Positions 3,501 through 57,608 of a DNA stretch of 64,000 nt are shown here, one piece after another. Under the pieces are notes generated by a model. It saw nothing but the letters and a program-made list of their open reading frames with translations. It did no database searches and was not told the DNA's origin. A program made the translations under genes and the position numbers. The DNA is taken from the NCBI RefSeq assembly GCF_046105845.1, contig NZ_CP151004.1; one strand, given 5' to 3'. Position 1 is the first letter of the stretch. The number at the start of each line of letters is the position of its first letter. The stretch is from Escherichia coli (GTDB taxonomy: Bacteria > Pseudomonadota > Gammaproteobacteria > Enterobacterales > Enterobacteriaceae).

Positions 3501-5271
3501 GAAAATCGACTGCCCGTGCAGCGCGGCGATAATGCTTTCACGCTCGGATTTACTGACGCTGTTGACAATCAACTTTATCGTCGTCACCAAAGGGGCCGAG
3601 CGTATTTCCGAGGTTTCTGCCCGCTTTACCTTAGACGCGATGCCCGGTAAACAGATGGCGATTGACGCCGATCTTAACGCTGGGTTGATCAACCAGGCGC
3701 AGGCGCAAACCCGGCGTAAAGATGTTGCCAGCGAGGCCGATTTCTACGGCGCGATGGACGGGGCATCGAAGTTTGTGCGCGGGGACGCCATCGCCGGGAT
3801 GATGATTCTGGCGATCAACCTGATCGGCGGCGTCTGTATCGGCATCTTCAAATACAACCTGAGCGCCGACGCCGCCTTCCAGCAGTATGTGCTGATGACC
3901 ATCGGCGACGGGCTGGTGGCGCAGATCCCGTCCCTGCTGCTCTCCACCGCGGCGGCAATTATCGTCACCCGCGTCAGCGACAATGGCGATATCGCCCATG
4001 ACGTGCGCCACCAGCTGCTGGCAAGCCCGTCGGTGCTCTACACCGCCACCGGGATCATGTTTGTGCTGGCGGTGGTGCCGGGGATGCCGCATCTGCCATT
4101 TTTGCTGTTCAGCGCCCTGCTGGGTTTTACCGGCTGGCGGATGAGCAAACGCCCGCAGGCGGCGGAGGCGGAGGAGAAAAGCCTCGAAACGCTGACCCGC
4201 ACCATCACCGAAACCAGCGAGCAACAGGTCAGTTGGGAGACTATTCCGCTGATCGAACCCATCAGTTTAAGCCTCGGTTACAAACTGGTGGCGCTGGTCG
4301 ATAAAGCGCAGGGTAACCCACTCACCCAGCGTATTCGCGGCGTGCGGCAAGTGATATCCGACGGCAACGGCGTGCTGCTGCCGGAGATCCGTATTCGGGA
4401 AAACTTCCGCCTCAAGCCCAACCAGTACGCCATATTCATCAACGGCATTAAGGCCGATGAAGCGGATATTCCGGCGGATAAACTGATGGCCCTGCCCTCC
4501 AGCGAAACCTACGGCGAGATTGACGGCGTGCTGGGGAACGACCCGGCGTACGGGATGCCGGTCACCTGGATTCAGCCTGCGCAGAAAGCGAAGGCGCTGA
4601 ATATGGGGTATCAGGTGATCGACAGCGCCAGCGTGATTGCCACCCATGTGAACAAGATTGTCCGCAGCTATATTCCTGATTTGTTTAACTATGACGATAT
4701 TACTCAGCTGCATAACCGTTTGTCGTCGATGGCACCGCGACTGGCGGAAGATTTGAGCGCGGCGCTCAATTACAGCCAGTTGCTGAAAGTGTACCGGGCG
4801 CTACTGACTGAAGGCGTTTCCCTACGCGATATCGTCACCATCGCCACCGTGCTGGTCGCCAGTAGCACAGTGACCAAAGATCATATTCTGCTGGCAGCTG
4901 ATGTGCGCCTGGCGCTACGGCGCAGCATTACCCATCCGCTCGTTCGCAAGCAGGAGCTGACGGTGTATACGCTGAATAATGAGCTGGAAAATCTGCTGAC
5001 CAACGTGGTGAATCAGGCGCAACAGGCCGGCAAAGTGATGCTCGACAGCGTGCCGGTGGACCCGAATATGCTTAACCAGTTCCAGAGTACGATGCCACAG
5101 GTGAAGGAGCAGATGAAAGCGGCGGGGAAAGACCCGGTGCTGCTGGTGCCGCCGCAACTGCGTCCATTGCTGGCGCGCTATGCAAGGTTGTTTGCGCCGG
5201 GGCTGCATGTGCTGTCGTATAACGAAGTGCCGGATGAGCTGGAGTTGAAGATTATGGGGGCGCTGAGTTGA
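3499..5271 (+). pseudogene. lfhA: lfhA remnant (FlhA-family export gate protein lacking the N-terminal membrane region)
   Basis: ORF begins inside the FlhA signature (ITKGAERISEVSARFTLDAMPGKQMAIDADLNAG) without the ~130 aa transmembrane N-terminus; C-terminus looks complete. It converges on and overlaps lafU. Confidence 0.75.
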
Positions 5272-13702: not shown

Positions 13703-13758
13703 TATGCCAGAACCTCTTCACGCGTTTCGAATGGCCTGTTCCTCTCTTTTTTGTACAC
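13387..13758 (-). CDS. Ros/MucR-family zinc-finger DNA-binding protein (short form lacking the usual N-terminal domain)
   Basis: 123 aa ORF with CLECGKLLIFLPRHIWFVHGIRADEYREKWNIP, close to the Ros/MucR signature. Confidence 0.6.
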   Translation of the reverse strand: MYKKERNRPFETREEVLAYHKREKIPCLECGKLLIFLPRHIWFVHGIRADEYREKWNIPKHIALAGISYLEKQIEYMKARIAKGKLDPAEQIAMMRIKRRQLKSDPDWRNRSGSILKTACLTL

Positions 13759-46699: not shown

Positions 46700-46885
46700 A
46701 TGACGTCACAACGATTTCTGCGGCTGGCACAGGTTATGGATAAAACCGGACTGAAACGCTCACAGGTCTATGCTTATATGAAAACAGGGGATTTCCCAAA
46801 ATCCGTCAAAATTGGCCCGTCCAGCGTAGCATGGCTGGAATCGGAAATTGACGAATGGATCAATACAAAAATAAATAACCGCTAA
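46700..46885 (+). CDS. alpA: AlpA-family phage/island transcriptional regulator (excisionase-like)
   Basis: 61 aa MTSQRFLRLAQVMDKTGLKRSQVYAYMKTGDFPKSVKIGPSSVAWLESEIDEWI, AlpA-like helix-turn-helix. Confidence 0.8.
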   Translation: MTSQRFLRLAQVMDKTGLKRSQVYAYMKTGDFPKSVKIGPSSVAWLESEIDEWINTKINNR

Positions 46886-46924: not shown

Positions 46925-47719
46925 ATGAACGATGATCACGGTATTCTTATGCCTGTCGCACTAAATCAGCTACGGGCATTTGATTTAAATCCACGCCTTA
47001 CCAAAAATCCAGAATATGATGAAATTAAAGAATCGATTCGCAACCGCGGGCTGGATTATCCGCCACAAATAACACAACGTCCGGGAGAATCTTTTTATAT
47101 TATTGCCAATGGAGGTAATACCCGGCTGGCAATACTCAACGAGTTATGGCTGGAAACTCACGATAAAAAATACTGGAATATTGTCTGTCATTTCTGGAAG
47201 TGGCATACAGACTGGAGCATTGAAGAAGGTAATTTACACTGCCTGCTTGGTCATCTCGTAGAAAATGATAAACGCGGTTCACTGACATTTATTGAACGGG
47301 CATTAGGGGTTCAAAGTGCAATAAACCTGTATCAAAGTATCCGGGGAAGCTCACAAAGAGATCTGGTACAAATGCTCTGTCAGGCGGGATATCCAGTATC
47401 CACCACGAAACTAAGTATTATGTCCGCGACTATCACATTTCTTTTACCCTATATTCCGGAAGCACTTTACGGTGGTCTGTCGAGACGTATTATCGATAAA
47501 TTGCTGGCACTTCGTTCCAATACGCTAAAATTCTGGGACAACTTCTGCCAGACGTTGCCTCCCGAAAAGGAACAGCAACTCCCTCTATTTGACGATATTT
47601 TTGCTATGGCCCTGACTCCCTTTAATGAACCGATGACAGGTTTTTCACTGGAGCATATTCAGGATGAGCTGACAGGGATTATCAGCAAGACACTTAATGT
47701 GGACTCTGCCCAGCGATAA
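46925..47719 (+). CDS. ParB/Srx-like N-terminal-domain protein (island-associated)
   Basis: Start MNDDHGIL after a gaggt Shine-Dalgarno; the motif YIIANGGNTRLAIL resembles the ParB N-terminal box; assignment tentative. Confidence 0.45.
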   Translation: MNDDHGILMPVALNQLRAFDLNPRLTKNPEYDEIKESIRNRGLDYPPQITQRPGESFYIIANGGNTRLAILNELWLETHDKKYWNIVCHFWKWHTDWSIEEGNLHCLLGHLVENDKRGSLTFIERALGVQSAINLYQSIRGSSQRDLVQMLCQAGYPVSTTKLSIMSATITFLLPYIPEALYGGLSRRIIDKLLALRSNTLKFWDNFCQTLPPEKEQQLPLFDDIFAMALTPFNEPMTGFSLEHIQDELTGIISKTLNVDSAQR

Positions 47720-47916
47720 CGGGATGGCCAGATTTGCGCCGGTGATATATTCAATGCCTCCGCAATCAACCGCTCACCTTTCGGCCAGTGGCTCCTGAGT
47801 GCATTTGCCAGCGTACCGGAGGCCAGCCCGGCTTTGCGGGAAACCGCTGCCAGCGACGTTCCCTGTTTTTTCAGTGCCGCGATAATATCTGCGGGGTGCC
47901 AGTCCTGCTGCATCAT
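47659..47916 (-). CDS. Ner/Nlp-family small DNA-binding protein
   Basis: From MMQQDWHPADIIAALKKQGTSLAAVSRKAGLASGTLANAL...; Ner-like helix-turn-helix; start overlaps the integrase stop. Confidence 0.55.
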   Translation of the reverse strand: MMQQDWHPADIIAALKKQGTSLAAVSRKAGLASGTLANALRSHWPKGERLIAEALNISPAQIWPSRYRWAESTLSVLLIIPVSSS

Positions 47917-49137
47917 ACTGCCCTCCCACAAACCAGCCGTTCGGACGGGATACCACATACACGCTGGCTCCACCACGCCATCACGTCGGTTCTCTGCTCA
48001 AGATAGGTCGAGCGGTTATAAGCGGCGCGCGTCTGATTAGTATCCGCATGAGCCAGTACAGCTTCTATCACATCAGGGGAAAATCCGGCCTCATTCAGCG
48101 TGGTGCTACCCAGCGCCCGGAAACCATGTGACACCAGCTCCCCGCAATACCCCATACGCCGTAGTGCCTTATTGACCGTTTCGCTATTCATTGGTTGCGA
48201 GGGCTTAACCCGACCCGGAAACAGGAACGGCGAGTGTCCACTTATCGGTTTAAGTTGCTCCAGTATCCACAGCATTTCATCAGTCAGGGGCACCAGATGC
48301 TCACGGCGTTTTTTCATACGCTCAGCCGGAATAGTCCATAGCTTTTTCTCCGTATCAATCTCACGCCACATGGTGCCTGACGCTTCTCCGGGGCGCACCA
48401 GCGTCAGCAACTGCCACTTAATCAGATAACGAGTCATCAGCGATAGATTGGTGGTTTCAATCCGCTGTACCAGCTCCGGCAGGCGTTCCGGGCGGATAGA
48501 CGCCATATGCTGTTTTTTCGGCTTCTCAAAGACCTTACCGATGGTCGAGGCTGGATTCGCATCAAGCAGGCCGGAATTGACAGCAAATACCATCACTTCG
48601 TTGATACGCTGGGTTAGACGACGCAGGGTTTCCAGCGCACCTCGTGCCCGGACCGGCTCAAGGGCGGCAATCAGAGTATGTGCTTTCAATTCAGCTACCG
48701 GCATCTGTCCGATTGACGGAAGAACATCCCGTTCCATCGAACGCCAGATATCATCTGCATGCACTTCTGAAATGCCACTGGTCTTTTTAATAGCAAACCA
48801 TCTTGTCGCCACATTGATAAACAGGCTGTCGATTGCTTTCTTTTCCTGTTCTGCGGCTTCCTGCTCCAGCTTTTTCGGATCTACACCCTGAGCCAGCAGA
48901 CCAAGATATTCATCATGTACTGCGGGCAGCAGCAAGAGTTACAGCAGGATAATAACCCAGCGTGATATTGGTACGGGCAGTGGAGTTTGGACGCTGGTAA
49001 CGAAAACGCCAGATTTTCTTCCCGGAAGTACGAACAGAAAGCGTCAGACCATGCCCGTCAGGCAGGTCGTAATCTTTATCGGCGGGTTTTGCTTTTTGTA
49101 CTGCGGCAGCAGTCAGCAGGCGGCGGGTAATGGTCAT
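47913..49137 (-). pseudogene. int: P4-type tyrosine integrase, interrupted by a frameshift
   Basis: N-terminal 74-aa ORF (48913..49137, arm-binding-like domain) and C-terminal 340-aa ORF (47913..48935, catalytic domain) lie in different frames with a junction near 48915-48935. Confidence 0.8.
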
Positions 49138-49320
49138 GATTTACTCCTCAGTTATCGTCAATGTTAAGCGACGAGGCTGACGTAATATCCTGTTCCACCA
49201 CCACTTTTTCAGCCATAAACTCAGAAATGGCCTACGAAATTTGTCCTCTGGTCGCATAGGCCATTTCATGGGCCATTTTGCACCGGATACAGGAGTATCC
49301 AGCAGGACAAATTCAGACGA

Positions 49321-49353
49321 AAAAAAACCGTATCACCTTGATAGCGATACGGT
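49321..49353 (-). terminator. Rho-independent terminator downstream of aspV
   Basis: On the minus strand accgtatc...gatacggt hairpin followed by ttttttt. Confidence 0.55.
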
Positions 49354-49398
49354 TTTCTTACTTCACAGGATGTATAAAAACACCCTGAAATTTGTAAG

Positions 49399-49475
49399 TG
49401 GCGGAACGGACGGGACTCGAACCCGCGACCCCCTGCGTGACAGGCAGGTATTCTAACCGACTGAACTACCGCTCC
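49399..49475 (-). tRNA. aspV: tRNA-Asp (GUC)
   Basis: Reverse complement reads GGAGCGGTAGTTCAGTCGGTTAGAATACCTGCCTGTCACGCAGGGGGTCGCGGGTTCGAGTCCCGTCCGTTCCGCCA. Confidence 0.97.
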
Positions 49476-51620: not shown

Positions 51621-52379
<759 letters not shown>

Positions 52380-57458: not shown

Positions 57459-57580
57459 AATATGCCTCTTTTAATGCTATTTTCGTTAACTGAGGTGATT
57501 ATGGGCTTCAGACTGTTGCGGAAAAAGAGCGTAAAATGCAGAGGATTTTTGCGATTCTGGCAATAATAGATATACAGACG

Positions 57581-57608
57581 AAAAAAAACCTCGAGCGTTA
57601 ACTCGAGG
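57581..57608 (-). terminator. Rho-independent terminator at the end of the rrnH operon (after aspU)
   Basis: On the minus strand cctcgag-ttaacg-ctcgagg hairpin followed by tttttttt. Confidence 0.65.

What the first reader, a model, noticed from the sequence alone, without database searches (positions are those of the whole stretch)
49223..49278. Inverted and direct repeats between the integrase start and aspV
gaaatggccta (49223-49233) and its inverted copy taggccatttc (49256-49266) are separated by 22 bp, with a further ggccattt about 5 bp downstream. Motifs in this position are candidates for integrase arm-type sites or an operator for int expression.
Basis: seen in the sequence. Interest (0 to 1): 0.3.

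Follow-up and report, generated by a model that had tools for sequence, protein, structure and literature searches.

The report
P4-type integrase arm sites at aspV
The three repeated 12-base words between the aspV tRNA gene and the integrase gene are most likely docking sites for the integrase's N-terminal domain, laid out as in satellite phage P4, and here they are left over in an island that can no longer move.

Summary
Read in the direction of int (- strand) there are three 12-mers: AAATGGCCCATG (49278-49267) and AAATGGCCTATG (49266-49255) in tandem at a 12-bp pitch, then an inverted copy 18 bp further on (AAATGGCCTACG, + strand 49225-49236).

- **Not chance:** any such 8-mer triple cluster appears in only 8 of 200 shuffles of the window.
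- **Adjacent gene:** it encodes a P4-family tyrosine integrase with an Arm-DNA-binding domain. It is frameshifted here and intact in E. coli SC418.
- **Conserved:** the three-box layout is kept in relatives from six other genera and at E. coli aspU and lysV, while the spacers drift.
- **Same design as P4:** the P4 record annotates the same arrangement as "attP arm sequence repeats", with similar distances to the core.
- **Both arms:** an intact lysV island carries a tandem box pair at its far end (attR), the only other such pair in 50 kb.

I conclude these are P'-arm integrase sites of a P4-type attL (confidence about 0.78). A second role as an int operator is plausible by analogy but untested. 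The window has no attR and a broken int, so the sites are a relic. This is a new member of a known kind, of low to moderate interest.

The parts
49267..49278 (-). Box P'1: AAATGGCCCATG, first of the tandem pair of putative Int arm-type sites
   Evidence: family D1. Conserved in alignment A2. Positional counterpart of the P4 repeat at 3965-3954.
49255..49266 (-). Box P'2: AAATGGCCTATG, second of the tandem pair, 12-bp pitch
   Evidence: Counterpart of the P4 repeat at 3953-3942.
49225..49236 (+). Box P'3: AAATGGCCTACG, the inverted copy, 18 bp beyond box P'2 in the int direction
   Evidence: Counterpart of the inverted P4 repeat at 3915-3926, where the gap is 15 bp.
49399..49475 (-). aspV tRNA-Asp(GTC). 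Its 3' end is the presumed core-type crossover region of attL
   Evidence: ARAGORN and Rfam. The core position is inferred from the P4 core, which is the 3' end of tRNA-Leu ending in CCA, and from the 18-nt direct repeat of the tRNA-Lys tail that bounds the lysV island. It is not demonstrated in this window.
49316..49364 (-). Island-borne hairpin plus T-run (AAAACCGTATC..GATACGGTTTTTTTT), a likely terminator for aspV carried on the P' arm
   Evidence: Inverted repeat I1. Nearly invariant in relatives. The terminator scan did not call it because the loop is 11 nt.
47913..49137 (-). int, a P4-family tyrosine integrase gene. It is a pseudogene here through a 2-bp deletion near 48923
   Evidence: ORFs of 74 aa and 340 aa. 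The intact 408-aa copy in SC418 has Arm-DNA-bind_3, Phage_int_M and Phage_integrase domains. The deletion was mapped. It is 38% identical to P4 Int.
49184..49212 (-). Weak candidate int promoter: CTGAAA (49212-49207), 17-nt spacer, GATATT (49189-49184). It starts 12 bp downstream of box P'3
   Evidence: Read by eye. It matches 8 of 12 positions and falls below the scan tool's threshold. In the aspU relative the same columns read TTGAAA-17-TATTAC. This is an inference only.
46700..46885 (+). AlpA/Vis-family gene (61 aa), the candidate recombination directionality factor of the island
   Evidence: Pfam Phage_AlpA, E = 8.6e-26. PHROG 'excisionase and transcriptional regulator'.
47659..47976 (-). 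HTH_35 winged-helix gene that overlaps the 3' end of int, a possible repressor
   Evidence: Pfam PF13693, E = 4e-30. PHROG 'transcriptional repressor'.

Best explanation
The three 12-bp boxes (consensus AAATGGCCyAyG) are the P'-arm arm-type binding sites of a P4-type attachment site in its integrated (attL) form. The island's integrase is a heterobivalent tyrosine recombinase. Its C-terminal domains act on the core at the 3' end of aspV. Its N-terminal Arm-DNA-binding domain would dock on the boxes about 120 bp away (two tandem, one inverted). Bending of the DNA in between would let integrase molecules bridge arm and core and assemble the recombination complex. An intact element would carry a matching tandem pair on the other arm, at attR. 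Shown here: the repeats, their conservation, the match to P4 geometry, the presence of boxes on both arms in a relative, and the link to the integrase N-domain type. Inferred: physical binding by Int, the bridging mechanism, and any repression of int by Int bound at these boxes. In this window int is frameshifted and there is no attR, so the sites are most likely a non-functional remnant of the element that delivered the aspV type VI secretion island.
For: 1. The repeats and their clustering are beyond chance.
2. The adjacent int encodes Arm-DNA-bind_3 (PF13356, E = 8.7e-23) plus the central and catalytic integrase domains. It is 38% identical to P4 Int over its full length.
3. All three boxes are conserved in position and orientation in relatives from Citrobacter, Affinibrenneria, Brenneria, Morganella, Intestinirhabdus and Pantoea, and at E. 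coli aspU and lysV. The spacer between boxes 2 and 3 varies.
4. The phage P4 record NC_001609 annotates 'attP arm sequence repeat' 12-mers in the same design. A tandem pair at 12-bp pitch lies 112 nt after the CCA end of the core, followed by an inverted copy after 15 bp. A second tandem pair lies 53 nt before the core. The corresponding distances here are 120 nt and 18 bp.
5. In the intact lysV island of E. coli MFDS1019527, a tandem pair AATGGGCCTATA/ATTAGGCCCACA sits 58 nt on the island side of the attR core repeat. In 50 kb, GGCC-N8-GGCC occurs only at attL and attR.
6. More distant integrases that target ssrA keep the same layout (12-bp-pitch tandem plus inverted copy) with other words: GTACACG, CTAGTAC, TTGGTATAC.
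7. The box variant (ATGGCC against TGGGCC) follows the N-terminal 95 residues of Int, including in the chimeric L009.
8. Published precedent exists for Int acting at attL next to its own gene: KplE1 IntS, P4 Int and PAI I536 IntI (PMC2951348; PMC7286903).
Against: - No binding data exist for this integrase.
- The attR evidence comes from one island type, found in two identical genomes, and from P4. It does not come from an element with the window's own box variant.
- A metagenome scan for a box pair upstream of a tRNA-Asp tail returned only a chance hit.
- The link between box type and N-domain could simply reflect physical adjacency of the boxes to the 5' end of int.
- Tandem repeats about one helical turn apart are also typical of excisionase sites (PMC7498355 abstract).
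- Boxes 2 and 3 can pair as a hairpin, and their dyad symmetry is kept with changes on both sides.
Confidence: 0.78

Rival explanations
1. The boxes act chiefly as an operator for int transcription. They would be bound by Int itself or by the co-transcribed HTH_35 repressor-like protein, with no role in recombination.
For: The same-orientation tRNA-then-integrase layout places the int promoter inside attL. IntS, P4 Int and PAI I536 IntI repress their own promoters (PMC2951348; PMC7286903). The boxes lie 87-141 bp upstream of the int ATG. An HTH_35 'transcriptional repressor' gene overlaps the end of int.
Against: The same boxes occur 16 kb away at attR of the lysV island, where there is no int promoter. 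P4 has the same design without an HTH_35 gene. No sigma-70-like promoter overlaps the boxes. The best candidate starts 12 bp downstream of box 3. In the lysV island the HTH_35 gene is not next to int, yet the boxes are kept.
Confidence: 0.1
2. The boxes are binding sites for the island's AlpA/Vis-type excisionase (recombination directionality factor) rather than for the integrase.
For: An AlpA-family gene is present at 46700-46885. Directionality-factor sites are typically direct repeats about one helical turn apart (PMC7498355 abstract). In locus L017 the same tandem boxes lie beside an excisionase-like ORF.
Against: Directionality-factor sites normally lie on one arm only (background knowledge of lambda Xis and KplE1 TorI). 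Here the boxes are on both arms and in both orientations. They correspond position for position to the P4 repeats annotated as arm repeats. For P4, Vis was proposed to act on int mRNA rather than on these DNA repeats (PMC2951348). The box variant follows the Int N-domain.
Confidence: 0.07
3. Boxes 2 and 3 form a functional hairpin, either in an int leader RNA or as a cruciform, and the symmetry rather than the word is what is selected.
For: The stem is 11-12 bp. The single-strand fold energy is -14.1 kcal/mol, z = -3.65. In 8 relatives, 95.8% of cells pair, with changes on both sides at 3 pairs.
Against: Box 1 and the attR boxes are not part of any such stem, yet they are equally conserved and change in the same way. 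The both-side changes mostly reflect the type A to type B switch shared by all boxes. No Rfam family matches. Transcription through the boxes is not established.
Confidence: 0.03
4. The repeats are a chance cluster with no function.
For: Counted over the whole window, single-word frequencies are as expected.
Against: The clustering is rare in shuffles. The conservation across genera and the match to P4 also rule this out.
Confidence: 0.01

Closest known systems
Satellite phage P4 attP 'arm sequence repeats' (record NC_001609; Pierson & Kahn 1987, J Mol Biol 196:487, cited in PMC7721734 and PMC7286903)
   Same: The integrase is homologous: 38% identity with the same three domains. The core is the CCA end of a tRNA gene. 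The repeats are 12-mers. On the int side a tandem pair at 12-bp pitch lies about 112-120 nt after the core, followed by one inverted copy 15-18 bp further on. A second tandem pair lies about 53-58 nt before the core on the other arm.
   Different: The word differs: AAATGGCCyAyG here against wTGGGGGCAyAw in P4. The target is tRNA-Asp rather than leuX. The inverted box is 87 bp upstream of the int ATG here but abuts the start codon in P4. No extra copy lies inside int. The element here carries a type VI secretion island and is decayed, whereas P4 is an 11.6-kb satellite phage.
KplE1 (CPS-53) prophage attL: IntS arm-type sites and TorI sites overlapping the intS promoter (Panis et al. 2010, PMC2951348)
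   Same: The tRNA gene and integrase gene have the same orientation, with attL lying between them. Arm-type sites sit upstream of int. The expectation is negative autoregulation.
   Different: In KplE1 an arm-type site overlaps the -10 box, and binding and regulation were shown experimentally. Here no overlap with a promoter could be shown and nothing has been tested.
Lambda Int arm-type sites (P1, P2, P'1-P'3)
   Same: The principle is the same: a heterobivalent integrase with five arm sites, two on one arm and three on the other, distinct in sequence from the core sites (background knowledge; PMC9791396 abstract).
   Different: Lambda Int has a different N-domain family and a different site sequence. 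Lambda int is not transcribed from within attL.
PAI I536 (selC) P4-like integrase regulation in uropathogenic E. coli (PMC7286903)
   Same: It is a P4-like integrase of a genomic island next to a tRNA gene. IntI represses its own promoter, and IHF binds the regulatory region.
   Different: That paper mentions no arm sites ('arm' has 0 occurrences). I did not test for an IHF site here.

Membership tests
P4-type attachment site: arm-type integrase sites (P' arm of attL) | An adjacent tyrosine integrase with an N-terminal arm-DNA-binding domain, homologous to P4 Int | tested here: met
   PF13356, E = 8.7e-23, plus PF22022 and PF00589. It is 38% identical to P4 Int, E = 2e-90. The window copy is frameshifted.
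P4-type attachment site: arm-type integrase sites (P' arm of attL) | Several copies of one 10-12-bp word in the arm, within about 200 bp of a core at a tRNA 3' end, and different from the core sequence | tested here: met
   Three 12-mers lie 120-174 nt from the CCA end of aspV. They have no similarity to the tRNA tail.
P4-type attachment site: arm-type integrase sites (P' arm of attL) | P4 geometry: a tandem pair at 12-bp pitch followed by an inverted copy on the int side | tested here: met
   Window. P4. The layout is also kept in distant family members.
P4-type attachment site: arm-type integrase sites (P' arm of attL) | The same word on the other arm (the attR side) | tested here: inconclusive
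   Met in the related lysV island and in P4. The window has no attR. A metagenome scan for a tRNA-Asp attR carrying boxes found nothing real.
P4-type attachment site: arm-type integrase sites (P' arm of attL) | Conservation in orthologous elements and co-variation with the integrase N-domain | tested here: met
   Alignment A2. N-domain clustering and the L009 chimera. Caveat: the boxes and the N-domain coding region are physically adjacent.
P4-type attachment site: arm-type integrase sites (P' arm of attL) | Specific binding by the integrase N-terminal domain, and a requirement for recombination | not testable with these tools
   This needs gel shift or footprinting and recombination assays.
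Autoregulated integrase operator (KplE1/P4 paradigm) | Int-binding sites overlap the -35/-10 region or the transcription start of int | tested here: inconclusive
   The consensus scan finds no promoter on the int strand between aspV and int. The best hand-picked candidate (8 of 12 matches) begins 12 bp downstream of box 3.
Excisionase (RDF) binding sites | Tandem direct repeats confined to one arm, adjacent to the core | tested here: not met
   Boxes occur on both arms and in both orientations in the lysV island and in P4.

The most novel reading that the evidence does not exclude
The arm boxes and the integrase N-terminal domain may be inherited and exchanged as one cassette, separately from the catalytic, target-choosing part of the enzyme. 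The Intestinirhabdus integrase (L009) has a type-B N-domain and type-B boxes (TGGGCC) joined to a catalytic region 92% identical to the window type, and it sits at tRNA-Asp. Its N-domain relatives in E. coli sit at tRNA-Lys (lysV) and at aspU. On this reading, one lineage of P4-like integrases seeded the type VI secretion islands found next to it at aspV, aspU and lysV in E. coli by shuffling arm-recognition and core-recognition modules.
Probability: 0.3. Interest if true: 0.4.

Novelty: new member of a known kind. Interest (0 to 1): 0.25.

Why it matters
The result defines the recognition word and layout of the arm sites for a little-studied lineage of P4-like integrases. In E. coli this lineage sits next to type VI secretion islands at aspV, aspU and lysV. 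It also shows that the P4 design of 2 + 3 arm sites at fixed distances holds across the family while the word itself changes. In practice, the box pair marks attL and attR ends, which helps to delimit such islands and to judge whether they can still move. The island in this window cannot.

Tried and rejected
- **attR in the window:** I searched for a direct repeat of the aspV tail, for a homolog of the lysV P arm, and for further boxes. None was found. The AATGGCCTGT hit at 13730 lies inside a MucR-family gene.
- **attR in relatives:** the 10-kb flanks of nine relatives from genome contigs held no attR. A lone box at L010:13004 is not at an island end. The aspU island has lost its far end to ISEc1.
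- **lysV P arm in E. coli genomes:** a search found only two identical genomes.
- **Viral-contig scan for the tandem pair:** it returned one prophage at tRNA-Ala (L017). A follow-up scan for that prophage's other end returned only noise.
- **Viral-contig relatives at 58% identity (ssrA targets):** they showed the same P' layout but no clear P-arm boxes.
- **Metagenome scan for a box pair upstream of a tRNA-Asp tail:** it returned one chance hit in a GC-rich coding region.
- **Phage collection:** no relative exceeds 53% identity.
- **Promoter scan:** nothing was called on the int strand.
- **42-aa ORF at 49141-49269 (-), which overlaps the boxes:** rejected as coding, because close relatives differ by frame-shifting indels there.
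- **RNA families:** only the tRNA matched. The consensus fold of the int leader is weak, at -1.0 kcal/mol.
- **IHF site:** none could be called with confidence by eye.

Full report
**Observation**

The window carries aspV (tRNA-Asp, 49399-49475, - strand). A co-directional integrase gene starts with ATG at 49137. In the 261-bp gap between them, GAAATGGCCTA lies at 49224-49234 and its exact inverted copy at 49257-49267, 22 bp apart. A third GGCCATTT lies at 49271-49278.

Read in the direction of int, the unit is a 12-mer:
- P'1: AAATGGCCCATG, 49278-49267.
- P'2: AAATGGCCTATG, 49266-49255, in tandem with P'1 at a 12-bp pitch.
- P'3: AAATGGCCTACG, + strand 49225-49236, inverted and 18 bp further on.

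The word is not over-represented across the whole window, but its clustering is. Three copies of any 8-mer within 60 nt occur twice in the window, against a mean of 0.05 in 200 dinucleotide shuffles.

**Context**

The integrase is intact in E. coli SC418 (408 aa). It has the Arm-DNA-bind_3, Phage_int_M and Phage_integrase domains and is 38% identical to P4 Int. In the window a 2-bp deletion near 48923 splits it into ORFs of 74 and 340 aa.

Downstream of int lie an HTH_35 winged-helix gene that overlaps its 3' end, a divergent AlpA/Vis-family gene, and a ParB-like gene. The type VI secretion cluster follows.

The window holds no second copy of the aspV tail and no P-arm homolog. The island therefore has no attR. 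Only 3 of 5,426 complete E. coli genomes carry this attL arm.

**Conservation**

Distant blastn and a scan of genome contigs recovered relatives next to tRNA-Asp in Citrobacter, Affinibrenneria, Brenneria, Morganella, Intestinirhabdus and Pantoea (79-83% amino-acid identity). It also recovered relatives in E. coli at aspU and at lysV.

All of them keep the three boxes in the same order, orientation and pitch. The spacer between boxes 2 and 3 and other flanks diverge (alignments A1 and A2).

Two box variants exist:
- Type A: AAATGGCC.
- Type B: AATGGGCC.

The variant follows the N-terminal 95 residues of Int. L009 has a type-B N-domain and type-B boxes, yet its catalytic region is 92% identical to the window type. 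Because the boxes abut the 5' end of int, this link is expected from physical adjacency alone. It is consistent with the model but not independent evidence for it.

**Comparison with P4**

The P4 record annotates 12-nt "attP arm sequence repeats":
- A tandem pair 53 nt before the core.
- The core itself, which is the CCA end of tRNA-Leu.
- A tandem pair starting 112 nt after the core.
- An inverted copy 15 bp beyond that pair, abutting the int start.

The window has the same int-side design, at 120 nt and 18 bp.

The intact lysV island of E. coli MFDS1019527 supplies the missing arm. A tandem pair AATGGGCCTATA/ATTAGGCCCACA lies 58 nt on the island side of the 18-nt attR repeat of the tRNA-Lys tail. 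In 50 kb, GGCC-N8-GGCC occurs only at attL and attR.

More distant family members that target ssrA keep the layout with different words. Together these results indicate homologous arm-type sites whose sequence co-evolves with the integrase.

**Mechanism**

The following is inferred, from established knowledge of lambda-type heterobivalent integrases. The N-domain binds the boxes while the catalytic domains bind the core. The DNA in between carries a conserved island-borne terminator hairpin at 49316-49364, and it bends so that arm and core are bridged. An AlpA/Vis-type factor would direct excision.

Int bound upstream of its own gene may also lower int transcription. This has been shown for KplE1 IntS, P4 Int and PAI I536 IntI (PMC2951348; PMC7286903). 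I could not place a convincing promoter over the boxes. The best candidate, CTGAAA-17-GATATT at 49212-49184, starts 12 bp downstream of box 3.

In this window the system is dead, because int is frameshifted and attR is absent.

**Rival explanations**

- Excisionase sites. These are typically tandem repeats on one arm only, which conflicts with boxes on both arms and in both orientations.
- An RNA or DNA hairpin. Boxes 2 and 3 can pair, but this does not explain box 1 or the attR boxes.
- A pure operator. This does not explain the attR copies.
- Chance. This is excluded by the conservation.

**Limits**

- There are no binding data.
- The attR evidence rests on one island type plus P4.
- A metagenome scan for a tRNA-Asp attR carrying boxes found only a chance hit.

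**Verdict**

The feature is real and the arm-site interpretation is supported. It is a new member of a known kind (P4-type att arm sites), is probably vestigial in this genome, and is of low to moderate interest.

Noticed in passing
window 48915-48930: int carries a 2-bp deletion (CA, near 48923) relative to the intact copy in E. coli SC418. It splits the gene into ORFs of 74 and 340 aa. Together with the missing attR, this means the aspV type VI secretion island is immobilised.
   Followed up: yes
window 49316-49364 and 57575-57590: The hairpin plus T-run carried on the island side of aspV is almost invariant among relatives at aspV, aspU and lysV. Its tail, GGTTTTTTTTCGTCTG, is identical to the native sequence downstream of aspU in the same window. 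P4 has TTTTTTCGTC at the equivalent place. The hairpin loop contains a conserved TCAA (ATCAA in most relatives), which may or may not be part of an IHF site.
   Followed up: partly
window 49153-49172: A short dyad lies just upstream of the int Shine-Dalgarno sequence. It reads TCGTC...GACGA here and TGTCA...TGACA in type-B relatives, so the symmetry is kept while the sequence changes. The consensus fold is weak (-1.0 kcal/mol). It could be a leader hairpin or a small operator.
   Followed up: partly
window 49238-49247 and 49304-49313: A perfect 10-nt inverted repeat, AATTTGTCCT/AGGACAAATT, brackets boxes P'1 and P'2. It is partly kept in type-A relatives and not in type B. A 9-mer, GAAATTTGT, is also repeated at 49387-49395, but that copy is not conserved even in SC418.
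   Followed up: partly
L009 (Intestinirhabdus alba) 443-1309: This integrase looks chimeric. Residues 1-95 are 83% identical to the lysV-type Int, while residues 201-289 are 92% identical to the window type. Its boxes are type B and its target is tRNA-Asp.
   Followed up: partly
L017 (IMGVR_UViG_3300045988_155108) 307-674: A prophage contig has the same type-A tandem pair, AAAATGGCCCACTAAATGGCCCACG, only 40 nt after a tRNA-Ala(CGC) gene. A 60-aa excisionase-like HTH_17 ORF follows on the opposite strand. The contig's integrase could not be retrieved.
   Followed up: partly
window 52259-52311: AATTAATG occurs three times within about 55 nt, inside or near the 3' end of gloB. It is the only other 8-mer triple cluster in the window.
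   Followed up: no
L002 (E. coli O158:H23) 3760-5190; L001 5065-6278: ISEc31 has inserted next to this attL arm in two of the three E. coli genomes that carry it. In O158:H23 it replaces int from about window position 49212, leaving the three boxes intact.
   Followed up: partly
L015 33585-33767: The attR end of the lysV island has two copies of the tRNA-Lys tail plus the native terminator, about 155 nt apart. The stretch between them is annotated as an RtT-like sRNA repeat.
   Followed up: no
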